Positions 25,958 to 51,603 of a stretch of DNA of 64,000 bases are shown here, in pieces. The notes beneath the pieces were generated by a model that was not told where the DNA came from, did no database searches, and worked only from the letters and a program-made list of their open reading frames with translations. Made by a program: the position numbers and the translations under genes. The stretch's first letter is position 1. The number at the start of each line of letters is the position of its first letter. Source of the DNA: Pseudomonadota bacterium (GTDB taxonomy: Bacteria; Bdellovibrionota_C; UBA2361; SZUA-149; DAOLCO01); the NCBI GenBank assembly GCA_027487795.1, contig JAIYCX010000039.1, forward strand, positions 355,811-419,810, given 5' to 3'.

Positions 25958-28900
25958 ATGGGGGAATTTAGTAATAAAAATGGGCAGGTTATAGCTCCTT
26001 CCTCTGACATTGAGGTAGGGAAAGACACGCCCTTAACTCTCCCTAGTGCGCCAGATAACAACCAAGATCAAAGTCAAAAAGACTCACTTAGCTTTCCCAA
26101 ATTAGACCCAAATGTCAAACTTAATACAAAATCAGAAAAACTCTTAGAAGAGCTTGCGATCTCCTTAGGCAATGCTAAATTCGACCGTGGCTTTAACATG
26201 ACCTTAGGCCAAGCCACTCACGATAATAATAACTACTCATCTCGACTACAAGTAGCAAATCAACAGATCTCAGATTTAGAACTAAAGATAAAATTTGAAC
26301 TAATAAAAAGTAACACTGCTCCCGAAGAACGAAAAGCCCAATTTGATAAGGTACAAAAATTTGCCGCTACGCGTGAGCATGAAGGACTGAATCAATTCCA
26401 AGCAGCAAAAACTGAGTACCAAAGAAGAACAGTTCAAGAAGCTGAAAAAGCAAGAAGAGAAGGAGGAGCAAGTTACGCACTAGGGGAGGTATTAACAAAA
26501 GCCACAAAATCAGCCTCTAGTCTTATTCCAACAACTAAAGAATCTGTAGAAATATTAAGCAGTGCAATATTCTCAGGCGGGGAAGGAATAGAAAAAGTAA
26601 GACTTAAAAACCTCTCACAAAGAGGAGAGTCCGTTCTTGGAACAACAGAAGAGTTTGCTAAAGGAAGTAATTCATCATTTAGCAATGCAGTCGCCCTAAT
26701 TGGAGTAGGCCTAGCCCCACTAGAGAAGGTATCAGGGATGACCCTAAACCCAGCTCTAGAGAGTGTAGACATTGGCCTTAGAGCCTCAAGAGTTGCAAGT
26801 TATAATACATTTTCGGGTAAGGATGCTCAGATTAATTACAGTGACTATAAAGAGCTAGAAGATAGAGAAGGTCTACTAAAAGCAGCGAAGCTTACTATGG
26901 ACGGTGCAAAGATAGCACTAGGAGCAGCAGCTCTTGGACCTAGCTCTTTGTCTCAATTAAGTCAGCCCATGTTAGTCTCGGGAGGGATGGGGTATGCCGG
27001 TGCCTTATCAGATGAGCTACTATCAAAAGAAGGTTTTAAATTAGGACGCTTTTTAGAGCATGGTTTTACTGGGACAGCAGATAGTTTTCTGTTCATGGGT
27101 GGGATTACGGGAATTGGGCATATAGCAGAGAAGACTGGAGCACTACATAAGATGTCATCTGTAAAGACATTCTTAAGTCTTGAGAATGGCGTTCAGAAGG
27201 AGAAGAAACTAGAGGCTATTCATAAAAGCTTTAAGGGACTAGAGATTACAAATGATGAGGCAAGGTTTGTAAGTAATCTAGTGGGTGAGATGAAAATGGG
27301 GCTAAGTGGGAAAATAGACCTGATTGATTCTCTACCAGATGTACAAAAAAGTCTGAATATTTTTTTAGAGAAGGTAGGAGATTTAAGCGCGCTAGAGATC
27401 TATGAGAAGCTTAAAAAGGATCCAGAGTATAGAAGGATGTTGGCTGGGGCAGTACTTAAGGTTGGAGTATCAGGGTTTGATGCTTTTGATGTTAAGAGCG
27501 GGACTAAGGGGATGGAGAGTCTGGAACAAACAGGAAGGATGGAAGATGGGAAGGAATTAGGGAAGTTTGTATCTTCTAAGAGTGGGAACTTAGAGAGTAA
27601 TGGGGACTTAGATTTTAGAAAAAATGGTGAGAGTATTTCAATTACCAATAGAGGAGAAGTTCCTATAGAAGTTCTTGCAGTTAATGGTAACGAATACAAA
27701 GGGTACTTTACACATACTAGAGATTTCTTTTATTTATTAGATAGAGAAGATCTTTCTTTAGCATACGGGGATATCTTAACATCAAGACAAGAAGTCGATC
27801 CAAACGGGACAGAGCATGTTGAATCATTTGTCGATAAAAATACAAAGCTAATTTTTTCTTATAAACAAAATAAAGAAAATTTATTACAAGAGAAGAAATG
27901 GAGAAGTTCTTTATTAGCACATGAGAATGAAAATAGGTCTGATATACTAGCTGGTAGAGCAGTTGATGAGAGGCGCTCATTTGAAACTCAGTTTCGATTT
28001 TTGGATAAGAATATAGATCAGGTTACTTTAAATAAAAGAATAAATGGTATCTTAGAGAGTAGTTATCTGGGGGCGGAAGGCTTGAGTTTGGCGGCAAGTA
28101 AAAAAGATAATATCGAATCAACTATCAATTTTCCTGAATTAGAATATATTTTAATTAATCTACAAGATCTAGTCAAAGAAGATAATTTTGAAGAAGGTGC
28201 TATTGAAAAACTGGACGATCTAATAACTCCTGGGAGTAGCAAACTAGTTGCACAGGGAATACTTACCTTAATAAGAAACTCTTCAAATCAATTATCTATT
28301 AAGATTTTAGACAACTTAGAGTTAATTTGCGCATATTTGATCTCATGTGATAACAACCAGATATCACGACCTATCTCTGGTATCATAGTATATGAAATCT
28401 TGCCGACGCTCTGTCAGGATACAAATGTTTCTCCATATATAAGATTAAAAGCAAAGACTATTCAAGAGAGACTAGTGTGCGAATCCTACTCATCATCTTT
28501 TGATCCTCGCTCAGTAAATAACGAAATAGGCGGCAAAGCTATATATGAAGATTCACCATTCTTTCCTGAAAGAGTTACTCTAAAAGATATCGCTAGAATT
28601 CGCAAATTAGCCAAGGATACTATATTTATCTGTAGAGAAGACGGCACTCCTGTTGCATTTAGTTATAGTTATGAAAACATTAATTCTGGAGACCCTAACT
28701 TATTGCAGCCTAGGCTATTAAAATCACTGAGAGATGAATTAAAACAGATAGAGCAAGGGGAACTTTCAAATCATATTTTACCTTGGGTAGCAATGGATCT
28801 TTATAGACATGAAGTATTATCTGGATTTTCTGAAGATTCTATAGAAGAATTTATGAACAGGATTATGCCTTCATCAATACCAAAAGAGATGATTACAGAG

Positions 28901-30487
28901 CTAGAGAAGGAATTATTTTATAAAAATATATATTTGCATAGGAGTATATATTCAAAATTAGTAATGATATTAGAAGAATTAGAAGATTCAAAAAAAGTCT
29001 TAACAGATGAAAGCAATGAAGCACCACTCGATAGCCAAAGTAATACCCAAGGTAGTATCGTAAATCCTTATTACTTCGATCCTAGTAAATATAATGAGCG
29101 AGAAAATCTTAAGGCACTGTATTTTAATGAAATGGATAATGAAAAGCTTAAACTAGTAAGACGTGAATTTGCAAATATTTTTCACGAAGAAAACTTTAAC
29201 GATGACCCGCTATATGACTTACTATCTTTAAATGAAGTTTATATATATTCCGATGATATGTACAATGCTCGTAATATTTGGGGAAATTACCTACGTAATG
29301 GACAAGAATCAAGCTTAAGCAAATTTAGGGCAGCTTTAAGAGAACGCTTAGATCACTTAATTTCATTAACAAACCAAACAAGAAGTACTTTCAATATACT
29401 AATGGATCTAGAACAAGAACGTTCGGAAGTATTCCCATTTAAAACTGAACATATTGAAAATCTATACTCCTTATTTCAAGAAGTACATCAAGGACCATTA
29501 AGATCTCATATTGAAGCTGAATTTGATATCGATCTTTCAGAAATAACTTTCAGATCACAGTTATATTTTCTTCAATTTTTACAAACTAGAGATACTGAAG
29601 GATTTATTGCATTTAAAAATGCTTTAAATAAATATCCTAATCAGAAATATAAAATTATAGAAGCCTTTGTTGCTAATGCAGAAAAGGCAACATATGCGAA
29701 ATATTTAATAGCTTTACCAAATAATTTACCAGAAACAATAGTTTCAAAAATCTTAGATAAATATCTCGAAATAATAGAATCCGCACAAGGGCTAGAAGAA
29801 CCACAAATACAAAAAGCCATCCGCTCAGCAAATCACTTTTTACATGCATATTCTATTAAAGCTAGATCTTCGGATAATCCAGAAAAAGTTATACTAAACC
29901 TAAACAAGCTCCATCATGAAATTCTAGCACTAGGAGTCCTAATAAGAGACTTAAGACGCACAGGTGCAATTAGTAATATTACTGATTTGCAAGGTCTTCA
30001 ATTTTCTTCCACATGCTCAAAAGATATTACAGATGATATTCGAAATGAAATAGCTGAACTATATCGCAGTAACTGGGAAAGTGATGCCTCATACAGTACA
30101 GAACATCGTGAAAAAGTTTTAGCAGCTCATGACAGGGCTATGAAGAATCCTGATACAAAGATCTACTCTTTTGAAACTAGCTCAGAAGTTCTAGCTTTTA
30201 TCAGAGTTGATTATCTTCCAGATGGCACAATTCACATGGGGGGATTGAATCAACGTCCAGAATTAGACCTTTCCTCTATAGGTATAACCTTACTCGAAGA
30301 AGTTATAAAACTAGAAAATCTTACTTCTGATATATTTATTGAAGTTACTAAAAAGAAAACTGAATTAATAGTTCAATATGAAAAGCTTGGATTTGTTATA
30401 GAAGCAGACAAAGTTATTATAAATTGGGAAGGAACAGGTGCGGATTTAGTAGTAATGCGCTTGCCTAGAGGTTCAATTATAAAGTAA
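25958..30487 (+). CDS. Very large (1509 aa) protein with C-terminal GNAT-type acetyltransferase domain; candidate secreted effector/toxin
   Basis: Long uninterrupted ORF with host-like AT-rich codon usage. No signal peptide. Ser/Asn/Gln-rich N-terminus. C-terminal GNAT motifs (...IHMGGLNQRPELDLSSIGITLLEEVI... and ...QYEKLGFVIE). Confidence 0.7.
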   Translation: MGEFSNKNGQVIAPSSDIEVGKDTPLTLPSAPDNNQDQSQKDSLSFPKLDPNVKLNTKSEKLLEELAISLGNAKFDRGFNMTLGQATHDNNNYSSRLQVANQQISDLELKIKFELIKSNTAPEERKAQFDKVQKFAATREHEGLNQFQAAKTEYQRRTVQEAEKARREGGASYALGEVLTKATKSASSLIPTTKESVEILSSAIFSGGEGIEKVRLKNLSQRGESVLGTTEEFAKGSNSSFSNAVALIGVGLAPLEKVSGMTLNPALESVDIGLRASRVASYNTFSGKDAQINYSDYKELEDREGLLKAAKLTMDGAKIALGAAALGPSSLSQLSQPMLVSGGMGYAGALSDELLSKEGFKLGRFLEHGFTGTADSFLFMGGITGIGHIAEKTGALHKMSSVKTFLSLENGVQKEKKLEAIHKSFKGLEITNDEARFVSNLVGEMKMGLSGKIDLIDSLPDVQKSLNIFLEKVGDLSALEIYEKLKKDPEYRRMLAGAVLKVGVSGFDAFDVKSGTKGMESLEQTGRMEDGKELGKFVSSKSGNLESNGDLDFRKNGESISITNRGEVPIEVLAVNGNEYKGYFTHTRDFFYLLDREDLSLAYGDILTSRQEVDPNGTEHVESFVDKNTKLIFSYKQNKENLLQEKKWRSSLLAHENENRSDILAGRAVDERRSFETQFRFLDKNIDQVTLNKRINGILESSYLGAEGLSLAASKKDNIESTINFPELEYILINLQDLVKEDNFEEGAIEKLDDLITPGSSKLVAQGILTLIRNSSNQLSIKILDNLELICAYLISCDNNQISRPISGIIVYEILPTLCQDTNVSPYIRLKAKTIQERLVCESYSSSFDPRSVNNEIGGKAIYEDSPFFPERVTLKDIARIRKLAKDTIFICREDGTPVAFSYSYENINSGDPNLLQPRLLKSLRDELKQIEQGELSNHILPWVAMDLYRHEVLSGFSEDSIEEFMNRIMPSSIPKEMITELEKELFYKNIYLHRSIYSKLVMILEELEDSKKVLTDESNEAPLDSQSNTQGSIVNPYYFDPSKYNERENLKALYFNEMDNEKLKLVRREFANIFHEENFNDDPLYDLLSLNEVYIYSDDMYNARNIWGNYLRNGQESSLSKFRAALRERLDHLISLTNQTRSTFNILMDLEQERSEVFPFKTEHIENLYSLFQEVHQGPLRSHIEAEFDIDLSEITFRSQLYFLQFLQTRDTEGFIAFKNALNKYPNQKYKIIEAFVANAEKATYAKYLIALPNNLPETIVSKILDKYLEIIESAQGLEEPQIQKAIRSANHFLHAYSIKARSSDNPEKVILNLNKLHHEILALGVLIRDLRRTGAISNITDLQGLQFSSTCSKDITDDIRNEIAELYRSNWESDASYSTEHREKVLAAHDRAMKNPDTKIYSFETSSEVLAFIRVDYLPDGTIHMGGLNQRPELDLSSIGITLLEEVIKLENLTSDIFIEVTKKKTELIVQYEKLGFVIEADKVIINWEGTGADLVVMRLPRGSIIK

Positions 30488-30489
30488 TG

Positions 30490-31764
30490 CTATAAATCAG
30501 TAATTGTATAAGAATCAGCAGATAATTGCTCTAATACCTTCTCTGATATCATTCCTTCTCTTACTGTAGAATATGGAATTAGAATTTTTGTATTTTTTTT
30601 GGTTTTTGTAATATTTGCAATACCTTCTCTCAGAATATTTATCTCATCATTATAGTTTAAAACTTTTCTATCTATAAGAAAGTTATGAATAAGTGGAACT
30701 TTTTTATCTAGTCTAAATTCTAGTAGAGCTAATATCTTATCATTCCAAATCGCTAGATGGCAGATACTACTATCTGGGATGATAAATTGATCAAGCATTT
30801 TATGTCTACCTTCTGTTACAAGTTTTTCAACAAGGTATTCTCTAGCTCTAAAAAACATATCACTAGTTTCACATTTACGAAGCATAAAACCAGTATTCTT
30901 AATATCAGGCATCGGTGCTTTATTTATTAATAAGAGTAAACTAGTAAGTTCTTCAACTTCATCTGTGGTAAAATTCTCAGCCGCATTAGCTAGTTTATCC
31001 GAAAATATTTCTATTAAATTATTGTAAATACTTAACCCATTATTAGTTAAAGAATAAATCTTCTGTCGTTTATCTCCCTTTGGTGAAAATTTACTAATAA
31101 TATTATTATTTTCAAAATCACTTAGGTATCTAGAAATCTTACTTGTAGAAAAAGGCAGGTTATCATCTAAATCTTTAAATCCTATCCCAGATTTGCTTTT
31201 TGCTATATCATTTAAAATTTGAAACTGAGTTAAGTTAAACTCATTTCCCATATAACTTTCACCTAACATACCTAAGGCAATTACTGCTCTTCTCTGTTCT
31301 GGTGCAAACAATCCTTCCCCTTCGCGAAGTTTTTCAGGGGGTGCTTTTAAGCCATTATTTAGTTTACGAAACAACTCAACCATCCGTAAATGTTCCCTTG
31401 GGGATAGTAAGCTGCAGCCTAGTTGTGAAATACGACTATTTAATTGATCTGCTTCAGTTAGAAGTTTTGTTCCATATTCAGTGAAAACTAAACGACGACC
31501 ACGTTTGTCTTCAAATGTTGTTTCCATACTAAGACAACCCATGCTTACTAGCTGATTTAAAAGTCTTGAAATCTTACTTTTTGAAATTCCTAGTAAATTA
31601 ACTAAGTCACTAGCAGATCTATTTGTATCGTATGCGAGGTGCGATAAAATTATGGATTCAACTGGAGACAAATCAGAAGGCAATAACATCCTAATAGCCC
31701 TCATTTTGCGCTGAGTAAGCAGGATTGAATCATGCAATTGAGTATATATATTTAGTGTAGCCAT
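30490..31764 (-). CDS. Transcriptional regulator with two MarR-type winged-HTH domains and an extra C-terminal domain
   Basis: Two repeats of the wHTH pattern (SDLVNLLGISKSKISRLLNQLVSMGC...RGRRL and FKDLDDNLPFSTSKISRYLSDFENNNII...DKRQKIYSLT). Confidence 0.6.
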   Translation of the reverse strand: MATLNIYTQLHDSILLTQRKMRAIRMLLPSDLSPVESIILSHLAYDTNRSASDLVNLLGISKSKISRLLNQLVSMGCLSMETTFEDKRGRRLVFTEYGTKLLTEADQLNSRISQLGCSLLSPREHLRMVELFRKLNNGLKAPPEKLREGEGLFAPEQRRAVIALGMLGESYMGNEFNLTQFQILNDIAKSKSGIGFKDLDDNLPFSTSKISRYLSDFENNNIISKFSPKGDKRQKIYSLTNNGLSIYNNLIEIFSDKLANAAENFTTDEVEELTSLLLLINKAPMPDIKNTGFMLRKCETSDMFFRAREYLVEKLVTEGRHKMLDQFIIPDSSICHLAIWNDKILALLEFRLDKKVPLIHNFLIDRKVLNYNDEINILREGIANITKTKKNTKILIPYSTVREGMISEKVLEQLSADSYTITDL

Positions 31765-31765
31765 G

Positions 31766-31960
31766 TTCGTATTTTATGATGATAGTTTTATAATAATAGT
31801 TTCATTCCGATATGCAATTATAAACTGGAAGTACTTAGTAATTATAAATCTATAAATAATATAGCTATTTAGACATTCTAAAACTCACATCAATAATCAT
31901 GATCAAATCAGTATAATACTACTAGATCGTCGGTGCGCGATGGGAATTGAAGCGCTGATA
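31766..31960 (+). repeat. Promoter-like repeat A, copy 1 (roughly 195 bp, 55-bp core identical to the copy at 33480-33534)
   Basis: taatagtttcattcc...aatcagtataatactactagatcgtcggtgcgcgatgggaattgaagcgctgata. The core contains an extended -10-like cagTATAAT. Confidence 0.6.
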
Positions 31961-32230
31961 TCTATGGCTCTTCCTAATGTTGAGTTCTTTATATTATTAT
32001 TTGGGTATAAGATTTTTCTGCTGTTCTCTCTTCGGCTGCATTAGAGATGGTTTAATCCCTTGCTCTGGCCGTCTCTTATTCAATTATAAATTTACTTTTC
32101 ATAATTAATTTCAAACAAAGTTAATAATGAAGAGAGAAAGAATAAATTAAGGTTATTGTTTTAAGTGGTTTTAATAAGGTTAGTTATTTACTTGAGCATA
32201 TCTAATCCATATTTTTTATTACGATAAGAT

Positions 32231-32312
32231 ATTCCGTTGAAAATAATATTTGCATTTCATAGAGTTTGAAATATTTTAATTCTATGAAATGCGATTTGCA
32301 TTATCCGGAATG
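32231..32312. promoter_or_regulatory. Nested imperfect palindrome (candidate operator or large hairpin) in the leader of the exonuclease cassette
   Basis: ATTCCG...GCATTTCATAG-(19 nt)-CTATGAAATGC...CGGAAT. Direct repeat CCGTTGAAA at both flanks. Confidence 0.25.
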
Positions 32313-32372
32313 TCCTACCGTTGAAAGGATACGCTATTGAGGGCATTTAATTTGCCCTAGAAAGAAAGTATT

Positions 32373-32891
32373 ATGAAAATTTTTTCAATCGACGCCGAAG
32401 TCGATGGACTGTACGGACCATCGTTCGCCATTGCTGTCACCGTCCGCCAGGACGGTGTAGAAATTGCGAGCTTCCAAGGAAGGATACCTGATGACGGAAT
32501 CAAGGATGGGTGGGTGAGGGAGAAAGTTCTCCCAGCCCTGAGTGACATGAAAGTCACGCATCAGACCACCGAGGCCCTCGAGGAGGCCTTCTGGGCCTTC
32601 TGGAGTGATCAAAAGGAAGGTTCCACCGTGATTGCCCACTGTGGCAGTCCGGTTGAGTCAGGACTCTTTCGGCGATGCGTCGAGAGAAATTTCGCCGAAC
32701 GACAATGGAACGGACCATTCCCACTTCATGAAGTGGGAACACTGCTCCTCGCAGTTGGGGCGGACCCCGGCAGCGTTGACAACTACAACAAAAGGCATGG
32801 CCTAGTCGTTCCCTTTGCAGGGGTGGCGCACCACCCCATGTACGATGCGGCTGCTGCCGCGGTTGCTTGGGAACACGCTATCGCTAAGTAA
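32373..32891 (+). CDS. GC-rich small DEDDh-type (DnaQ/Orn-like) 3'-5' exonuclease, probably horizontally acquired
   Basis: Exo I motif FSIDAEVDGLYG and Exo III motif HHPMYDAAAAA. GC far above the surrounding DNA. Confidence 0.6.
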   Translation: MKIFSIDAEVDGLYGPSFAIAVTVRQDGVEIASFQGRIPDDGIKDGWVREKVLPALSDMKVTHQTTEALEEAFWAFWSDQKEGSTVIAHCGSPVESGLFRRCVERNFAERQWNGPFPLHEVGTLLLAVGADPGSVDNYNKRHGLVVPFAGVAHHPMYDAAAAAVAWEHAIAK

Positions 32892-32940
32892 AGTAAAAAG
32901 CTCTGCTTAGAATAAAAAACTAAGCAGGAGTTAAAATAAC

Positions 32941-32992
32941 TAAACCCACTCAGCCTTGATTAAAGTTAATCTAATTCGCTGAGTGGGTTTTT
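32941..32992 (+). terminator. Rho-independent terminator after the exonuclease gene
   Basis: AAACCCACUCAGC-(loop)-GCUGAGUGGGUUUUU. A second smaller hairpin GCUCUGCUUAG...CUAAGCAGGAG lies at 32900-32930. Confidence 0.5.
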
Positions 32993-33023
32993 CAAAAGGT
33001 ATATAATTATTCTTTCTCTTTCT

Positions 33024-33137
33024 TTATTATCTTTACCTTGACTCCACCCCATTTTGCGATTTCCCATCGCGAGCTTATTTCTTAGCCTAACATAATACGA
33101 AAGTTGTATGTATCTTAGTTTCATCAAAGTGGGGTGG
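33024..33137. repeat. MITE-like 114-bp element with 23-bp terminal inverted repeats, copy 1
   Basis: TACCTTGACTCCACCCCATTTTG ... CAAAGTGGGGTGGGCTGAAGGTA. Second copy at 34693-34806. Confidence 0.5.
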
Positions 33138-33159
33138 GCTGAAGGTAGTATCAAAAAAT

Positions 33160-33355
33160 ATTAAGCACTATATATCCTAATCAGTTCGCTTTCACTATCC
33201 AACCAATTATACTTATCATTAATAGCATCAAGCCCATTTTTACCTAGGCTGATTCTTTTATCTATGTAGGAATAAGAATTCTCTATACACCTTGCCGCAT
33301 ATTCCAGATTACCGGATTCAAAAACGTATCTACAGTTTGTTTTCAGTTCATTATC
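33160..33355 (-). pseudogene. Diverged in-frame remnant (64 codons plus stop) of the C-terminus of the GT4 glycosyltransferase gene at 34820-35998
   Basis: Reverse-complement translation ...NCRYVFESGNLEYAARCIENSYSYIDKRISLGKNGLDAINDKYNWLDSESELIRIYSA* versus the intact gene ...NCGYVFESGSPESAARYIEKAFLSKEERDLLGQNGLKAINDKYNWSISEKELIKIYSA*. Same position relative to the MITE-like element. Confidence 0.55.
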
Positions 33356-33534
33356 ATAATTTTAGAATAATAGTTTCATTCCAGTATGTAAACATATACT
33401 GAAAATACTCAACGATAATAAATCTCTCACTAATATAATAACTTAGATATCCTAAAACTCAAATCAATAATTCCGATTAAATCAGTATAATACTACTAGA
33501 TCGTCGGTGCGCGATGGGAATTGAAGCGCTGATA
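33340..33534 (+). repeat. Promoter-like repeat A, copy 2
   Basis: Same architecture as 31766-31960. Identical 55-bp core at 33480-33534 containing the -10-like TATAAT. Confidence 0.6.
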
Positions 33535-33970
33535 ATCAAAAGGCTGAGAAAGACGGGTAGAGAGTTTGATAAGGTTAAGGCTGCAAGTACTAAGTTAAGA
33601 AAGCAGACCTTACTAAATGTTAAAATTCTAGAGAACAAGCAGTGTTAAAAAACACAGCAGGGGTTCTTTAGAACAAAGGTTTTGTTAAACGTTTGCAAAC
33701 TCAAAAAACATCTTTCTTCTCTATAAAGAAGAATCAATAAATTCTTTTTTATAGAGGATTAAAAATCCTGAGTTTGTGTTCTTTATATTATTATTTGGGT
33801 AGAAGAAAGCATAATTGCTCTTGATAAACTGAGTCACTAAAAGTTTTATAAACTAAGAGACTATAAAAAAACAAAGTGAAAAGTTTAACAAGAGCGGTGA
33901 TTTTTGGTTTTGGTACTCTGCTTTTGAAGAGTACCGAGGTTTTATCGCTCGTAAGAGCGAAGGAGAAAAA

Positions 33971-34561
33971 ATGAGAAAGAAAAAAGGAACCCTGCTTGCT
34001 TATCGCAAGCAGGGTGGTTTTATAACAGAGATTCAATACGGAGAGCACGGTGCTCTTTTTATCGAAAAAGTTGAATGCAGAACTGTTTCAGTTCTGCATT
34101 ATGGTTGGTATCAAGATGGCGGTTATAGGCCGTCTGTCAGATATGATGTCTCACGGACAGCTATGATGTGCCACCATCGGTGGCTGGAAACGGGGTACAA
34201 TTGGACCCCAAAACCAGTGGCCTTTGCAAGGGAGCATTGCGAGGATGTCGAATTATCAATTGCTACCGGCGATGGATATTTCGATTTGCAGAATAGAAAA
34301 GTCTCCGGCTGGTGGCTTTCCGTAAAGGAAGCTACCTTGGAAAGGAACTCTTTTAGAAGTTCCCGCTTTGAGCGGGATTACTTCAAAAGAAATTACCCAA
34401 GAGGTAATTGCCATAATTGCGGATTCGACTTGCAAGAACACTTCCAAAAAATCCGCCAAGATGGCGGATATGTCTACCGACTGGAGGAGGGTTCTTCAAC
34501 CTTCCTGTTTGATTGGGAGGCACATGACCGACCAAGGGTAATGAATACCCTTCTCCCTTAA
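33971..34561 (+). CDS. GC-rich hypothetical protein with Cys/His clusters (possible zinc-binding), probably horizontally acquired
   Basis: 196-aa ORF with about 50% GC. CHHRW, CEDVEL and CHNCGF clusters. Strong AGGAG Shine-Dalgarno. Hairpin-rich 5' leader. Confidence 0.5.
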   Translation: MRKKKGTLLAYRKQGGFITEIQYGEHGALFIEKVECRTVSVLHYGWYQDGGYRPSVRYDVSRTAMMCHHRWLETGYNWTPKPVAFAREHCEDVELSIATGDGYFDLQNRKVSGWWLSVKEATLERNSFRSSRFERDYFKRNYPRGNCHNCGFDLQEHFQKIRQDGGYVYRLEEGSSTFLFDWEAHDRPRVMNTLLP

Positions 34562-34596
34562 AGTTCTCCTAGAAGGGATATAGGCTGAACTGTTTA

Positions 34597-34640
34597 TGAG
34601 CAGTGACAGCCAACGAATGTTGTATGTCACTGCTCTTTTA
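34597..34640 (+). terminator. Rho-independent terminator after the GC-rich hypothetical gene
   Basis: GAGCAGUGACA-(loop)-UGUCACUGCUC followed by UUUUAAAAAU. Confidence 0.5.
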
Positions 34641-34692
34641 AAAATATTTAGGATATGGAAGTCTACTATTCTTTCACTATCTCGATATTTAC

Positions 34693-34806
34693 TACCTTGA
34701 CTCCACCCCATTTTGCGATTTCCCATCGCGAGCAAATTTCTCGGCCTAACATATGACCATAGTCAAATGTATCTTAGCTTCATCAAAGTGGGGTGGACTG
34801 AAGGTA
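34693..34806. repeat. MITE-like 114-bp element with 23-bp terminal inverted repeats, copy 2 (immediately downstream of the GT4 stop)
   Basis: TACCTTGACTCCACCCCATTTTG ... CAAAGTGGGGTGGACTGAAGGTA. Confidence 0.5.
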
Positions 34807-34819
34807 GTATTCAGATATA

Positions 34820-35998
34820 TTAAGCACTATAAATCTTAATCAATTCTTTCTCACTAATCGACCAATTATATTTATCATTAATAGCTTTAAGCCCATTTTG
34901 GCCAAGTAAATCTCTTTCTTCTTTTGATAGAAATGCTTTTTCTATATACCTTGCCGCTGATTCCGGACTACCCGATTCAAAAACGTATCCACAGTTTGTC
35001 TCAAGTACAATTCTTTTTAAAGGTTCTGCATCTGAAACTAACACTGGCTTAGCAAGTGCCATATATTGAAAAAGTTTATTTGGTATGGTGGTATTTATGA
35101 ATTCATTATTTAAATGAGGAACTAAGCATAGATCTGAGTTATATATTAACGTGGGCAACTCACTAAACGAAACCCAACCAGAAAAACTTATACAATTTTC
35201 TAATTTAAGTTTTGTAACAAGTGCTTGCAGTACGCTAAGATAATTTCCTGAACCTACAATTACTAATTTTATAGAATTATTTCCGCGATTACTTAGAATA
35301 TGAATAGCATTGATTATATCTTCTAATCCGCGCTCTATCGTAATCACTCCAGCATATAAAAGTACAAACTCTTTTTGCTTTTCTTTCTTTAACAAAGTAT
35401 TGTCTGTCATAAACTGCTCTAAATCCACAGTATTACTAACAACAAATATTTTATCTGCTGCAATTCCTTGCTTAATTAATCTATCTGCTTGTTCCTCAAC
35501 AACCAAGATAATTTTATCAAATACCTTAACAGAAAACCATTCAACTAATTTTGCTATTCGATAATTTTTAAAAACTCTCGTTTTCCAATCAACCTTACCC
35601 CAGCCCTTTAGTGCTTCTGGATAATTTTCCCACATGTCTAAAACTATAGGGATTCTTAAAATTCTTCCTACAAACCATACTGCTGGAGCTAGTGCGATAT
35701 CTACAACTTGAAGTGCTTGAATTTTATTTTCTATACAAAAAGATACTAATTGAAAAATCCAAAGTGGATTAAAGAAAATTGGAAATTTTAGAATTTTATT
35801 TACTGTTCTACTTTTGAAAGTTGGTATTAGTCTTCTTACATTAATACCATTGTATATTTCATTTGATAGTTTGAAATCACCATAGTTATTACAAAATACG
35901 AAAATTTCATGCCCTGCTGATATAAGGCTTTTTGCTTCTTTTTCTATTCTTTCAGCTGGAGGGAACTCTCCTCCTTGGTATACAATACATATTTTCAT
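34820..35998 (-). CDS. Family 4 (GT-B fold, GT1-type) glycosyltransferase
   Basis: C-terminal EGFGL-type region (…AKPVLVSDAEPLKRIVLETNCGYVFESGSPES…). 392 aa. Confidence 0.75.
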   Translation of the reverse strand: MKICIVYQGGEFPPAERIEKEAKSLISAGHEIFVFCNNYGDFKLSNEIYNGINVRRLIPTFKSRTVNKILKFPIFFNPLWIFQLVSFCIENKIQALQVVDIALAPAVWFVGRILRIPIVLDMWENYPEALKGWGKVDWKTRVFKNYRIAKLVEWFSVKVFDKIILVVEEQADRLIKQGIAADKIFVVSNTVDLEQFMTDNTLLKKEKQKEFVLLYAGVITIERGLEDIINAIHILSNRGNNSIKLVIVGSGNYLSVLQALVTKLKLENCISFSGWVSFSELPTLIYNSDLCLVPHLNNEFINTTIPNKLFQYMALAKPVLVSDAEPLKRIVLETNCGYVFESGSPESAARYIEKAFLSKEERDLLGQNGLKAINDKYNWSISEKELIKIYSA

Positions 35999-49368: not shown

Positions 49369-51270
49369 TTATAGTCTTGTTTGAATGCCAAAGATTATAG
49401 AAGCTCCGTAAGTTCCGTATCCTGGTATTTCTTGATAATCCTTATCTAATAAGTTCTGAACTCTGATATATGGAGTCAAATAATCAAAACCAGAATATTC
49501 AGTGACTGCATTAACTAAAATATAGTCATCCATATTTTTACCGTCAGAGTCTATTCTATCGGCGATACCAATCACATCTGTTCTTAGTACTAAGTTATCA
49601 ACTGGCAGTACTCGTAGTGACAATCCACCCTGATGACGAGCTCTTCTTGGTAAGACTGAATTCGAATCTCTATTTTCCGAGTCTAAATAAGTATAACTTA
49701 AGGTAGGCTCTACATATTGACTAACTTTAAAAGAAACTTTTGATTCTATACCAGTAGCATATGCACTTTGTATATTCTCTGGAGCATTAGTTAATACGTC
49801 AAAAGAAATTAAATCATCAAAGTTGTTATAAAAAAAAGTTATGTCCGATTTAAAATATGAAGTAGTTGTTTCAAATCCTACATCATAAGATTGACTCTTC
49901 TCAGCATCAAGATTTGGATTAGAAAATCCTGGAAAATACAAATCACTCAGCGTTGGTGCTCTATAACCAGTGCCATAACTTGTATGCACTCTTGATGATA
50001 CAGCTTCAAAACTTTGTGATGCTGTTAATCTGTAAGTAAAGATATTTCCAAACGAAGAATCAAAATCTTCTCTAGCCCCAGCTGTTAAGTTAGTTCCTTC
50101 AAATGGAGAAAACTTTTGATCAGCAAATATGCTATTTATATCCCTACTTTTATTAAATTGCTCTAATGAATTCCCATCGTTTCTTTCATAAGAATAACCA
50201 AGTAAAGTTGTTATATCATCAGAAAATTTAAAAACGTTCTGTTGTTGAACATTATAATTTGTAGATTTAAAAGCATAATTATTAAAGCTAGTTTCTGGAT
50301 CTAATCCCTTAAAATAATCAGAATTATAAGCTAGAACTAAAGTGGGATTAAAAAATATTTTTTCTTCTTTTTCTACTTGACCAAACTTAAGACTAGACTG
50401 TACAGACTCTCTTCTTTGTCTGTAATCTAATGCATCTATAGAGCCAGTAGCAAAATCAAAACCATCTAACTCAGAATTACTTTTAAGATATCTAAAAGTT
50501 GGGGTTATTTCTACATCTTCAATTGTAGCAGTTGCCTTCCCTACTACGCTAGCTGCGGAATATGGATCATTCTCTGGATTATTGTTGGAAGTTTCTGCTA
50601 CAGATGTACCGTGTAGCGAAAACCATGAAGTTCCAATAAAGCCTTTTAGATTTTCAGTTCCTCCTGTAGTGGTAGCTTGATATCTCTGCTCACCATATGA
50701 TCCAGCCTCTGTATTAAGAGTAAGAGATTCTTCATCTGATGGGCCTTCAGTAATAATATTTATTACCCCGCCTAAAGCATCACTTCCATAAAGTGTACTT
50801 TGTGCTCCCTTTAAAACTTCTACTTTTTTAACACCAAGTGAGTTAAAATCAGCGAAATCAAATTGACCACTTAAATTTTCATTAATAGGAATACCATCTA
50901 CCATTACTAGACTTTGACTTGATCCTGCACCTCTTAAAAACACACTGGTAGTTCTACCTGGACCTCCAGATTGAGTTACTTGTAGGCCAGGTACACTTCT
51001 TAGTGTATCAGCCAAAGTAAAATCACGTCTTTCTTTTATTTCCTGTGATTGAACTAAATTATAAGTTGATCCAACTTCTTTAGTTTCCTCTTCGAATCTG
51101 TTAGCAGTAATTATCATTTCGGGAATAGACTCTTCTGAGGCCCCTGAAAGTGTCTCCGCTACACTAAAGTCAGCTAATATTAATTGTGATAAAGGCAAAG
51201 AAGTAAATGCGCAGGCACTAAACATTCTCGCCAATGTTTTTTTGACGTTCATTCCGATTCTCCAGTACAT
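49369..51270 (-). CDS. btuB: TonB-dependent receptor, BtuB-like (cobalamin uptake inferred from the upstream riboswitch)
   Basis: Plug motif VMVDGIPINENLSG...VEVLKGAQSTLYGSDALGGVINI. Beta-barrel. Signal peptide. B12 riboswitch immediately upstream. Confidence 0.7.
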   Translation of the reverse strand: MYWRIGMNVKKTLARMFSACAFTSLPLSQLILADFSVAETLSGASEESIPEMIITANRFEEETKEVGSTYNLVQSQEIKERRDFTLADTLRSVPGLQVTQSGGPGRTTSVFLRGAGSSQSLVMVDGIPINENLSGQFDFADFNSLGVKKVEVLKGAQSTLYGSDALGGVINIITEGPSDEESLTLNTEAGSYGEQRYQATTTGGTENLKGFIGTSWFSLHGTSVAETSNNNPENDPYSAASVVGKATATIEDVEITPTFRYLKSNSELDGFDFATGSIDALDYRQRRESVQSSLKFGQVEKEEKIFFNPTLVLAYNSDYFKGLDPETSFNNYAFKSTNYNVQQQNVFKFSDDITTLLGYSYERNDGNSLEQFNKSRDINSIFADQKFSPFEGTNLTAGAREDFDSSFGNIFTYRLTASQSFEAVSSRVHTSYGTGYRAPTLSDLYFPGFSNPNLDAEKSQSYDVGFETTTSYFKSDITFFYNNFDDLISFDVLTNAPENIQSAYATGIESKVSFKVSQYVEPTLSYTYLDSENRDSNSVLPRRARHQGGLSLRVLPVDNLVLRTDVIGIADRIDSDGKNMDDYILVNAVTEYSGFDYLTPYIRVQNLLDKDYQEIPGYGTYGASIIFGIQTRL

Positions 51271-51294
51271 CCCCCTCGGGACTCTAGATTTATA

Positions 51295-51505
51295 TTAGCC
51301 AATAATGCCTGGTATCCTGGCTTGCAGTCATCCTACTAAGAGACAATCCTTCCCAAAATTTGCTCTATTTAAATAATAAATAGGAAAAAATCAGTGGACA
51401 TGAATAGAGTCTCTATTCGTCGTGCATACAGTTGCGGGGCAGCGAAAGATTTTAACTTTACTTCCCAGAGAGAATATTAATACAGTTAATATTAGTACTC
51501 TCTAT
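51295..51505 (-). promoter_or_regulatory. Cobalamin (AdoCbl) riboswitch in the btuB leader
   Basis: Minus-strand RNA contains GGGAAGUAAAGUUAAAAUCUUUCGCUGCCCCGCAACUGUA (consensus GGGAA..GGUG.AAAUCC...GUCCCGCAACUGUA). The downstream B12 box is AAGCCAGGAUACCAGGCA (consensus AGYCAGGAGACCUGCC). Confidence 0.6.
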
Positions 51506-51603
51506 TCATAAAATTTTTATAATCTTATGAAAAACATAATTGGTGCTAGTTAAAATTAACTAGCATAGAATAACTAACACTATATATATTTATGGTAAAG
51601 TAC

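What the first reader, a model, noticed from the sequence alone, without database searches (positions are those of the whole stretch)
31906..31960. Perfectly conserved 55-bp promoter/leader core shared by both cassettes
AATCAGTATAATACTACTAGATCGTCGGTGCGCGATGGGAATTGAAGCGCTGATA occurs identically at 31906-31960 and 33480-33534. The surrounding 140 bp are only about 70% identical. Stronger conservation of the core than of its flanks implies function. It could be a promoter with a conserved 5' leader, a protein-binding site, or a small RNA. The GC-rich portion GUCGGUGCGCGAUGGG is unusual for this genome.
Basis: seen in the sequence. Interest (0 to 1): 0.55.

Follow-up and report, generated by a model that had tools for sequence, protein, structure and literature searches.

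The report
Repeated promoter-leader module of a gene-cassette array
The identical 55-bp sequence is most likely the promoter and first transcribed bases of a control module copied in front of each of two unrelated imported genes, within a little-known kind of variable gene array that also occurs in several distant bacterial groups.

Summary
The 55-mer occurs exactly twice (31906-31960, 33480-33534) and nowhere else in the window or the public collections searched.

It is not the middle of a repeat. It is the 3' end of a 197-nt module (A+core). Similarity stops dead after it, and two unrelated GC-rich cargo regions follow.

A pseudogene fragment (C') inside the tandem unit gives a neutral yardstick of about 76% identity. 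A 55-nt identical run then has P about 5e-5.

The core holds a TATAAT box inside a CAGTATAATACT palindrome, followed by a GC-rich hairpin that folds better on the sense strand.

The locus belongs to a conserved architecture found in Oligoflexia and several candidate-phyla lineages:
- a large GNAT-tailed protein;
- a divergent winged-helix regulator;
- an array of variable small genes.

In most of the relative arrays examined, near-identical modules precede unrelated genes. One has a palindrome, a consensus promoter, a near-identical leader and the same abrupt boundary. Some carry hammerhead ribozymes.

Best reading (about 0.55): a regulator-controlled promoter plus conserved 5' leader. No transcript data exist, and full 55/55 identity is more than a promoter needs. 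A recombination joint or an RNA-processing role remains open.

The parts
25958..30487 (+). Large 'platform' protein (1509 aa). The C-terminal ~330 aa are homologous to the GNAT-tailed large proteins next to related arrays.
   Evidence: No Pfam hit for the window protein itself. C-terminus vs L005 large protein E 6e-19, vs L011 E 2e-4. tblastn across loci. A GNAT domain passes the Pfam cut-off in the L013, L014 and L017 homologs.
30490..31764 (-). Tandem winged-helix (MarR-like) regulator, transcribed divergently from the cassettes. Its start codon abuts module copy 1.
   Evidence: Two MarR/HTH_27 regions, residues 30-97 and 176-253. Homologous to the regulator of the syntenic Oligoflexia locus, E 7e-25. 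No other homolog by word search.
31764..31905 (+). Module copy 1, upstream part (A). 74.6% identical to A'. Contains a promoter-like site, TAGACA-16-AATAAT (31870-31897).
31906..31960 (+). Core copy 1. TATAAT at 31912-31917 inside the palindrome CAGTATAATACT (31909-31920). GC-rich hairpin at 31929-31959. 11-mer CGCGATGGGAA at 31936-31946.
31972..32012 (+). D4 box copy 1 (24-nt exact run at 31984-32007), 12 nt after the core.
32373..32891 (+). Cargo 1: 172-aa protein with a DEDDh 3'-5' exonuclease fold, 55-57% GC. Member of a widespread uncharacterised family.
   Evidence: AlphaFold pLDDT 96.7. Foldseek hits to RNase T / ExoX / TREX1 / DinG exonuclease domain, TM 0.62-0.74.
32942..32993 (+). 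Terminator-like hairpin after cargo 1 (13-bp arms, then a T run).
   Evidence: Read from the sequence. Not listed by the scan because the loop is longer than 8 nt.
33034..33150 (.). Hairpin B1: a ~25-bp outer stem enclosing three small hairpins. Carries the 11-mer CGCGATGGGAA on the - strand (33061-33071).
   Evidence: Fold z -4.8 (+) and -3.9 (-).. 88.9% identical to B2, with a 42-nt identical run.
33161..33340 (-). C': neutrally decaying copy of the last 60 codons of the glycosyltransferase gene.
   Evidence: 77% identity. Mismatches by codon position 11/14/18. 22 non-synonymous vs 8 synonymous codon differences.
33338..33479 (+). Module copy 2, upstream part (A'). Contains the perfect palindrome CAGTATGTAAACATATACTG (33382-33401) and TAGATA-16-AATAAT (33444-33471).
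33480..33534 (+). Core copy 2 (TATAAT at 33486-33491, hairpin at 33503-33533, 11-mer at 33510-33520).
33535..33765 (+). Cassette-2-specific 231-nt stretch between the core and the D4 box. Contains a 16-bp hairpin at 33719-33756.
   Evidence: (I11).
33766..33806 (+). D4 box copy 2.
33971..34561 (+). Cargo 2: orphan 196-aa ORF, 46% GC, preceded by AAGGAG.
   Evidence: no homolog. (no family).
34598..34640 (+). Terminator-like hairpin after cargo 2 (17-nt arms, 4-nt loop, then TTTT).
   Evidence: (I13) and the sequence.
34690..34809 (.). Hairpin B2. 11-mer on the - strand at 34720-34730.
   Evidence: Fold z -6.2 and -5.9..
34820..35998 (-). Glycosyltransferase gene that closes the array. Its 3' end is the source of C'.
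   Evidence: Pfam Glycos_transf_1 / Glyco_transf_4. The same frame (regulator ... GT) occurs in the Oligoflexia locus.

Best explanation
The 55-bp core is the business end of a repeated expression module. It holds the -10 region of a promoter, overlapped by a palindromic operator, plus the first ~40 transcribed bases, which fold into a 5'-proximal GC-rich stem-loop. One copy of the module stands in front of each of the two cassettes of a small variable gene array.

The array hangs on a conserved platform: a large GNAT-tailed protein plus a divergently transcribed tandem winged-helix regulator. Each cassette is its own transcription unit: module, cassette-specific leader, foreign GC-rich ORF, terminator.

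The adjacent regulator most likely binds the CAGTAT/ATACT palindromes and so controls itself and both cassettes together. The conserved leader hairpin most likely gives both mRNAs a common 5' end, for stability or for recognition by a common factor.

Shown:
- the repeat, its excess conservation and its position at the module/cargo boundary;
- the sequence features;
- the conserved architecture, and a matching module anatomy in one related array.

Inferred: transcription start, regulator binding and the role of the leader.
For: 1. Exact two-copy repeat with 0 expected. Against the neutral yardstick from pseudogene fragment C' and region A (identity 0.761), P(run >=55) = 4.5e-5.

2. TATAAT at 31912-17 and 33486-91. 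A second promoter-like site, TAGACA/TAGATA-16-AATAAT, would start transcription at the first bases of the core.

3. CAGTAT-N(1-9)-ATACT gives 5 matches vs 0.52 expected. Three of the four distinct sites lie in the two modules, and two of these sit over the -10 box.

4. The hairpin is -15.6 kcal/mol on the + strand. The 55-mer folds to -15.4 on the + strand vs -9.6 on the - strand. Three stem pairs are G-U by my reading of the dot-bracket, which would fit a sense-strand RNA.

5. Each cargo has its own terminator-like hairpin (I13).

6. Module copy 1 abuts the regulator's start codon.

7. Platform homology. The platform sits next to cargo-1 homologs in 8 of the 10 closest loci.

8. Most of the related arrays examined carry 100-280-nt repeats at 82-99% identity, directly upstream of unrelated same-strand ORFs (L014, L020, L028) or between them (L017, L025). 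In L028 the first copy abuts the regulator gene.

9. The L028 module is a palindrome TGTCAAT..ATTGACA, then TTGACA-17-TATAAT, then ~125 nt of near-identical leader that begins with a hairpin, then an abrupt loss of similarity. Its upstream part is only ~70-80% identical. This is the window's pattern.
Against: - No transcript or binding data.
- The TATAAT box has no good -35 (read from the sequence).
- The hairpin is not unusually stable for its composition (z -0.9 to -2.1).
- There are only two identical copies, so no covariation test is possible.
- 55 of 55 identical positions is more than a promoter, operator and simple hairpin would normally constrain at ~24% neutral divergence. This hints at concerted evolution or a denser function.
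- The core shares an 11-mer, in inverted orientation, with hairpin B. The promoter model does not explain that.
- The core has no detectable counterpart in the syntenic Oligoflexia locus.
Confidence: 0.55

Rival explanations
1. Recombination joint. The core at the 5' side, together with hairpin B at the 3' side, is the site at which cassettes are exchanged or added. Its perfect identity is maintained because every exchange re-creates it, not because of expression.
For: - Similarity ends with single-base sharpness at the core's 3' end and begins again at B, so the two elements delimit exactly the variable, foreign (46-57% GC) cargo.
- The cargoes are unrelated. Cargo 1 is a mobile gene also found alone in other genomes.
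- Core and B share CGCGATGGGAA in inverted orientation: 4 exact copies in 64 kb, all in these elements, vs 0.21 expected even when one mismatch is allowed.
- B1 is better conserved than the dead gene fragment next to it (89% vs 77%, P = 4e-4).
- 55/55 identity exceeds what regulation needs.
- The same abrupt leader/cargo boundary recurs in L028.
- Array content differs between closely related platforms (L014 vs L017).
Against: - No integrase, invertase, transposase or HUH enzyme was found among the ORFs scanned, which cover about 14 kb upstream and 15 kb downstream of the locus.
- No attC-type paired core sites.
- The tandem unit carries along a useless gene fragment (C') and the upstream region A'. 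That points to ordinary duplication or Campbell-type homologous recombination rather than clean site-specific insertion.
- No other copies of the core in the public collections searched.
Confidence: 0.2
2. RNA processing or insulating element. The conserved leader RNA is itself the functional unit. It would be a counterpart of the hammerhead ribozymes that occupy the 5' side of cassette genes in related arrays, defining or protecting the 5' end of each cassette mRNA, or acting as a short regulatory RNA.
For: - Type III hammerheads sit immediately 5' of cassette genes on the gene strand in L008/L014 (5 copies) and L016 (3 copies), E 4e-7 to 2e-4.
- A hammerhead opens the L020 module.
- DUF3800-IX RNA occurs in four related loci.
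- In both the window and L028 the transcribed part, not the promoter part, is the best conserved part of the module.
- The fold is better on the sense strand.
Against: - No Rfam family matches the core or B, even at E <= 10.
- The hairpin's stability is ordinary.
- No terminator follows the core, so a discrete small RNA is unlikely.
- Core-B RNA pairing is no better than shuffled controls, and cofolding keeps them apart.
- No covariation data.
Confidence: 0.12
3. No function. The identity is a by-product of a recent gene-conversion or crossover tract between two old repeats.
For: - There are only two copies, both in one tandem array where conversion is easy.
- Complete identity without a single neutral change is typical of conversion.
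- The core is not found in any relative.
Against: - The tract lies at the very edge of the homology, where conversion needs flanking homology on both sides and is least likely.
- It coincides with a -10 box, a palindrome, a GC-rich hairpin and the cargo boundary.
- A second, separate conserved block (B, a 42-nt identical run, P ~1e-3) carries the same 11-mer.
- The same conservation profile recurs independently in L028.
Confidence: 0.1

Closest known systems
Divergent MarR-family promoter/operator regions (a regulator gene transcribed away from its target, with palindromic operators overlapping the -10/-35 boxes; established knowledge of the family)
   Same: A winged-helix MarR-type gene is transcribed divergently from the first cassette. 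A palindrome overlaps the -10 box. The same half-sites recur in the module.
   Different: The regulator is a tandem (two-domain) protein with almost no detectable relatives. The whole promoter-leader module is duplicated in front of a second, unrelated foreign gene. Binding is untested.
Integron gene-cassette arrays (IntI, attI, attC, Pc)
   Same: A conserved platform is followed by a one-directional array of unrelated, often foreign, small genes. There are sharp cassette boundaries and a structured ~120-nt imperfect palindrome (B) after each cassette.
   Different: No tyrosine integrase. No RYYYAAC/GTTRRRY core sites. Every cassette has its own promoter module and terminator, instead of sharing one Pc. 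A duplicated gene fragment lies between the cassettes.
Ribozyme- and DUF3800-RNA-associated gene neighbourhoods (Weinberg et al. 2017, PMC5737381)
   Same: Related arrays with the same platform contain type III hammerheads and the DUF3800-IX motif next to DUF3800 and other small genes. The paper states that no function is known for the DUF3800 motifs.
   Different: The window's own array has no hammerhead and no Rfam motif. The platform (GNAT-tailed protein + wHTH) and the repeated promoter-leader modules did not turn up in the paper passages I read or in my literature searches.
5'-terminal stem-loop mRNA stabilisers (e.g. the ompA 5' UTR; established knowledge)
   Same: A stable hairpin begins within ~10 nt of the predicted transcription start, in the window and in L028.
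   Different: Stabilising hairpins need structure, not sequence. Here every base is identical between copies.
attL/attR direct repeats of integrated elements
   Same: A perfect direct repeat of tens of bp brackets a ~1.5-kb segment with foreign base composition.
   Different: No integrase and no tRNA target (the only tRNA is at 22465-22548). The flanks outside the repeat are also homologous, so the arrangement is tandem units and not an insertion.

Membership tests
Sigma-70 promoter with operator | -10 hexamer close to TATAAT | tested here: met
   TATAAT at 31912-17 and 33486-91. An alternative AATAAT with TAGACA/TAGATA at a 16-nt spacing.
Sigma-70 promoter with operator | -35 hexamer at 16-18 nt | tested here: inconclusive
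   No good -35 for the TATAAT box (read from the sequence). The upstream alternative scores 10/12 and 9/12. Promoter-like sites are only mildly enriched in the region (17 vs 11.1 +/- 3.2).
Sigma-70 promoter with operator | Transcription starts there | not testable with these tools
   No transcriptome data available.
Sigma-70 promoter with operator | Palindromic regulator site overlapping the promoter, with the regulator encoded next door | tested here: met
   CAGTATAATACT overlaps the -10 box. The pattern gives 5 matches vs 0.52 expected, and 3 of the 4 distinct sites lie in the modules. The MarR-like gene abuts module copy 1. Binding itself is untested.
Integron attC / attI | IntI-type tyrosine recombinase adjacent | tested here: not met
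   No recombinase domain in any ORF scanned between 12107 and 49221, nor in the five more distant ORFs checked.
Integron attC / attI | Paired R''(RYYYAAC) ... R'(GTTRRRY) sites 40-140 nt apart in an imperfect palindrome | tested here: not met
   A single RYYYAAC lies in the loop of B, with no partner. No candidate anywhere in 31700-35000 on either strand.
Self-cleaving ribozymes (hammerhead, twister, pistol, hatchet, HDV-like) | Match to the family covariance model | tested here: not met
   No hit in 31700-35000 at E <= 10 or at the gathering score. The same search mode finds hammerheads in relatives L008 and L016.
Self-cleaving ribozymes (novel class) | Self-cleavage in vitro | not testable with these tools
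   Needs an in-vitro transcription and cleavage assay.
Small RNA / intrinsic terminator | GC-rich hairpin followed by a U run shortly after the core | tested here: not met
   No terminator-like site at or just after the core in either copy. The tails are AUCUAUGG and AAUCAAAA.
Integrated element att repeats | Integrase plus a tRNA or gene-end target, with unrelated flanks | tested here: not met
   No integrase. No tRNA within 9 kb. The flanks A/A' and B-C/B-C' are homologous.
Platform-linked variable array (GNAT-tailed large protein + divergent wHTH + small-gene array; defined here) | Homologous large protein and divergent wHTH regulator directly upstream of a same-strand array | tested here: met
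   The gene order is the same in L013, L014, L017, L019, L020, L028 and L011.
Platform-linked variable array (defined here) | Near-identical modules in front of unrelated cassette genes | tested here: met
   In the window. In relatives. L013 and L011 lack such repeats, so the feature is frequent but not universal.

The most novel reading that the evidence does not exclude
The locus is a small member of an undescribed class of gene-capture arrays. The platform is a large GNAT-tailed protein plus a divergent winged-helix regulator. It recruits foreign genes one by one behind a copy of a promoter-leader module. The conserved leader end (here the 55-bp core, with its CGCGATGGGAA hairpin mirrored in hairpin B) is the joint at which cassettes are attached. 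In other lineages the same position is taken by hammerhead ribozymes or DUF3800-type RNAs. If so, this would give a genetic context, and a testable function, to bacterial hammerheads and the orphan DUF3800 RNA motifs.
Probability: 0.2. Interest if true: 0.85.

Novelty: new variant of a known kind. Interest (0 to 1): 0.58.

Why it matters
The 55-bp repeat taken alone is a regulatory detail of one poorly sampled, low-GC Gram-negative genome. It matters because of what it led to.

The architecture recurs in Oligoflexia and at least four candidate-phyla lineages: a GNAT-tailed large protein, a divergent winged-helix regulator, and an array of variable, partly foreign small genes. Most of the arrays examined carry lineage-specific, near-identical 5' modules, and several carry 3' structured elements. 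Several of these arrays carry type III hammerhead ribozymes and a DUF3800 RNA motif. The 2017 survey that described the DUF3800 motifs states that it has no hypothesis for their function.

The window offers a minimal two-cassette example in a non-CPR bacterium. It comes with an internal neutral control, which shows that the leader and the 3' hairpin are kept intact while neighbouring DNA decays. That makes three questions experimentally approachable: how such arrays are expressed, how they are regulated, and how they gain cassettes.

Tried and rejected
1. Further copies.
- Core 23-mer in the species-representative genomes and in viral contigs: none.
- Core 21-mer in JGI metagenomes: none.
- B 27-mer in viral contigs and B 22-mer in metagenomes: none.
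- blastn of the whole locus against phages and plasmids: no match.
- The rest of the window has no partial copies.

2. Known RNA family. Rfam at the gathering score and at E <= 10: nothing on the core or B.

3. Homology of the core and the D4 box to the leader of the syntenic Oligoflexia locus. A permissive local alignment looked collinear. With stricter scoring, 938/1000 and 132/1000 shuffles did as well. Rejected.

4. Long-range RNA pairing of the core with B through the shared 11-mer. The duplex energy of -26.8 is no better than shuffled controls (-24.4 +/- 3.5), and cofolding keeps the two hairpins separate. Rejected as a full duplex. Loop-loop kissing is not assessable with these tools.

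5. Integron attC: rejected.

6. Prophage or ICE att site: rejected (no integrase or tRNA).

7. Import of C' from a diverged functional gene: not supported, because the changes are not biased towards third positions or synonymous codons.

8. Small ORFs that start at the ATG inside the core (MGIEALI..., 34 and 44 aa). They share only the 7 core-encoded residues. The D4 box is inside one and outside the other. Judged fortuitous.

9. Neighbour-based comparison through the MarR-like protein: no homologs by word search.

10. The second member of the GT cluster (P0005/L065) covers only the N-terminal half of the gene, so it does not reach B or the core.

11. Literature searches for a description of the platform or array found none. 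The supplementary text of the 2017 paper is not held.

Full report
**Observation**

The 55-mer is present exactly at 31906-31960 and 33480-33534 on the + strand. There is no third copy in the window even with three mismatches, and none is expected by chance.

The repeat is actually 197 nt long (31764-31960 vs 33338-33534, 82% identity), and the 55-mer is its 3' end. The 142 nt upstream (A/A') are 74.6% identical. Immediately after the last base of the core the two copies have nothing in common. The exception is a 41-nt box (D4, with a 24-nt exact run). It lies 12 nt after the core in copy 1 and 232 nt after it in copy 2.

**Anatomy of the locus**

The two copies belong to two tandem units. In order along the + strand:

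- MarR-like gene (-, 30490-31764)
- A, then the core
- a 412-nt leader
- cargo 1 ORF (32373-32891), then a terminator-like hairpin
- hairpin B1 (33034-33150)
- C' (33161-33340)
- A', then the core
- a 436-nt leader
- cargo 2 ORF (33971-34561), then a terminator-like hairpin
- hairpin B2 (34690-34809)
- glycosyltransferase gene (-, 34820-35998)

C' is a copy of the last 60 codons of that glycosyltransferase gene. The cargo ORFs are 46-57% GC in a ~30% GC background.

B is a ~120-nt element with a ~25-bp outer stem and three inner hairpins. It is strongly structured on either strand (z -3.9 to -6.2).

The ORFs scanned, which cover about 14 kb upstream and 15 kb downstream of the locus, encode no recombinase, integrase or transposase. 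The neighbours are chromosomal housekeeping genes.

**Is the conservation more than neutral?**

C' supplies an internal control. Its 43 differences from the real gene end are spread 11/14/18 over the three codon positions (not significant). They change 22 codons non-synonymously and 8 synonymously, so it is a decaying pseudogene fragment at 77% identity.

Pooled with A/A', the neutral identity is 0.761. Under that rate, an identical run of at least 55 nt anywhere in the 504 aligned positions has P = 4.5e-5. The 42-nt identical run in B has P = 1.1e-3. B as a whole (89%) is less diverged than neutral, with P = 4e-4.

So both the core and B are held constant while adjacent DNA drifts. Gene conversion is a possible alternative, but it is least likely at the very edge of a homology block. 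It also would not explain why the identical tracts coincide with recognisable sequence features.

**What the core contains**

- A consensus TATAAT (31912-17) embedded in the palindrome CAGTATAATACT.
- Upstream, TAGACA-16-AATAAT (TAGATA in copy 2). This would place a start at the first bases of the core.
- Downstream, a GC-rich stem-loop (31929-59). It folds to -15.6 kcal/mol on the + strand. The whole 55-mer folds to -15.4 on the + strand and -9.6 on the - strand. Three of its stem pairs are G-U by my reading. Its stability is ordinary for its composition (z -0.9 to -2.1).

The half-site pattern CAGTAT-N(1-9)-ATACT gives 5 matches in the window against 0.52 expected. Three of the four distinct sites lie in the two modules, including a perfect 20-bp palindrome in A'.

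No terminator follows the core, so a short stand-alone RNA is unlikely. No Rfam family matches the core or B at any threshold.

The 11-mer CGCGATGGGAA, part of the core hairpin, occurs four times in the window. It is on the + strand in both cores and on the - strand in both B elements (0.21 expected even with one mismatch allowed). Each cassette is therefore bracketed by an inverted pair. As RNA, a core-B duplex is no better than shuffled controls. The motif is better read as a shared small hairpin or protein site.

**Context from elsewhere**

The core and B were not found in any public collection searched. The host proteins are singletons at 90% identity.

Cargo 2 is an orphan. Cargo 1 belongs to a family of at least 141 uncharacterised proteins. 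A confident model (pLDDT 96.7) has the DEDDh 3'-5' exonuclease fold (RNase T, ExoX, TREX1; TM 0.62-0.74). The family's invariant D7, E9, H153 and D158 fit that fold.

The genomic context of the closest family members has the same architecture as the window. A large protein on the + strand is followed by a divergent winged-helix regulator (MarR or TrmB type) and then an array of small + strand genes.

- The window's large protein (C-terminal ~330 aa) and its regulator are homologous to those of the Oligoflexia locus (E 6e-19 and 7e-25).
- The large proteins end in a GNAT domain.
- The Oligoflexia array even ends at a glycosyltransferase gene.
- Among 52 loci from species-representative genomes, the platform accompanies 8 of the 10 closest cargo-1 homologs (Oligoflexia, Saccharibacteria, Paceibacterota, Komeilibacteria and unnamed MAGs). 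It also accompanies a more distant Nomurabacteria homolog (41% identity).
- The other two of the closest ten lack it, and tblastn found no platform in the remaining distant Firmicutes, Frankia and Streptococcus homologs.

**Modules in the related arrays**

Self-comparison shows direct repeats of 100-280 nt at 82-99% identity in most of these arrays (L014, L016, L017, L020, L025, L028). L013 and L011 have none.

Mapped on the ORFs, the repeats in L014, L020 and L028 lie directly upstream of unrelated same-strand genes. In L028 the first copy abuts the regulator gene, as in the window. In L017 and L025 the repeats lie between ORFs, and in L016/L014 a 111-nt structured repeat follows the cassette genes.

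The L028 module can be read plainly. It has a palindrome TGTCAAT..ATTGACA, a consensus TTGACA-17-TATAAT promoter, and about 125 nt of near-identical leader that begins with a hairpin. Similarity then breaks off abruptly, well before each ORF. The part upstream of the -10 box is only ~70-80% identical. That is the conservation profile of the window's A+core.

Other arrays put type III hammerhead ribozymes at the 5' side of the cassette genes. L008/L014 has five and L016 has three, with E 4e-7 to 2e-4, just under Rfam's cut-off. A hammerhead opens one L020 module. Four loci contain the DUF3800-IX RNA. The 2017 survey that described the DUF3800 motifs states that no function is known for them (PMC5737381).

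**Interpretation**

The best-supported reading is that the 55-bp core is the -10/operator region plus the first ~40 transcribed bases of a promoter-leader module. The module is repeated in front of each cassette and is probably controlled by the adjacent tandem winged-helix protein. I put this at about 0.55.

What it does not explain is the absolute identity of all 55 positions and the inverted 11-mer shared with B. These, together with the razor-sharp module/cargo boundary seen here and in L028, keep alive a second reading: the leader end and B are the joints at which cassettes are exchanged (about 0.2). Against that reading stand the absence of any recombinase, the absence of attC-type sites, and the duplicated gene fragment C' plus A', which look like the product of ordinary duplication or Campbell-type homologous recombination.

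A third reading is an RNA processing or insulating element that stands where relatives have hammerheads (about 0.12). It is suggested by analogy only. A functionless conversion tract (about 0.1) is disfavoured by the position and content of the tract and by the independent recurrence in L028.

**Novelty and limits**

A repeated promoter/operator/leader is a known kind of thing. The array type it belongs to did not turn up in the literature I could search. It may connect to the open question of what bacterial hammerheads and DUF3800 RNAs are for.

All functional statements rest on sequence features and analogy. There are only two identical copies of the core, so no covariation test was possible, and there are no expression data. 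The host is probably an Oligoflexia-like bacterium. That is an inference from the best hits, not a placement.

Noticed in passing
window 31972-32012 and 33766-33806: A second conserved box (D4, 24-nt exact run GTTCTTTATATTATTATTTGGGTA) lies 12 nt after the core in cassette 1 and 232 nt after it in cassette 2. It occurs nowhere else in the window. Function unknown, and it is not an obvious promoter.
   Followed up: partly
window 33535-33765: A cassette-2-specific 231-nt insert between the core and D4, with a 16-bp hairpin (33719-33756) whose 3' arm contains a T6 run. It could be a separate small transcript or the remnant of an insertion.
   Followed up: no
window 31940-32044 and 33514-33648: Small ORFs start at the ATG inside the core (MGIEALI...). 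One is a 34-aa hydrophobic peptide (cassette 1) and the other a 44-aa basic peptide (cassette 2). They share only the 7 core-encoded residues. The start codon sits in the hairpin stem. Probably fortuitous.
   Followed up: partly
window 33900-34640: The orphan cargo 2 region is studded with perfect GC-rich hairpins, some inside the ORF (33989-34015 with 11 bp, 34074-34100 with 12 bp, 34451-34469 with 8 bp). This is unusual for a coding sequence. The ORF has a good AAGGAG ribosome-binding site but no homolog anywhere.
   Followed up: partly
window 32239-32305: A 28-nt-arm inverted repeat (75% complementary) in the cassette 1 leader, flanked by a repeated CCGTTGAAA.
   Followed up: no
window 51290-51514 (-): A cobalamin riboswitch (56 bits, E 3e-11) directly upstream of a TonB-dependent B12 receptor gene (49369-51270). 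Ordinary.
   Followed up: yes
L008/L014, L016, L020 (related loci): Type III hammerhead ribozymes (just below Rfam's gathering score) sit immediately 5' of cassette genes on the gene strand. One L020 copy has CUGACGAG instead of CUGAUGAG. DUF3800-IX RNA lies next to DUF3800 genes in L008, L009, L016 and L017.
   Followed up: partly
L011/L012 812-7261: Here the platform plus array (806-aa protein, TrmB-like regulator, 6-7 small genes) is inserted between clpP and tig, which are normally neighbours. This suggests the whole unit is itself an island.
   Followed up: no
cargo 1 family (P0007, P0011-P0129; L013-L064): A ~175-aa DEDDh-fold exonuclease family with no Pfam, PHROG or PADLOC model. It is spread over CPR phyla, Oligoflexia, Gammaproteobacteria, Frankia, many Firmicutes and oral streptococci. 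In L018 and L021 it is a lone gene among housekeeping genes.
   Followed up: partly
L013 4373-4383 and 5199-5209: An 11-nt perfect inverted repeat (AGCAGTGGCAC / GTGCCACTGCT, the latter followed by T7) brackets the cargo-1 homolog of the Oligoflexia locus. This recalls the inverted 11-mer of the window, but a match of this size is not improbable by chance (about 0.2 expected).
   Followed up: partly
window 30490-31764 (-): The tandem winged-helix regulator gives weak hits to the wHTH parts of CRISPR-associated Csa3/CasR/CARF3 models in PADLOC (E 1e-8 to 1e-9). This is probably generic wHTH similarity.
   Followed up: no
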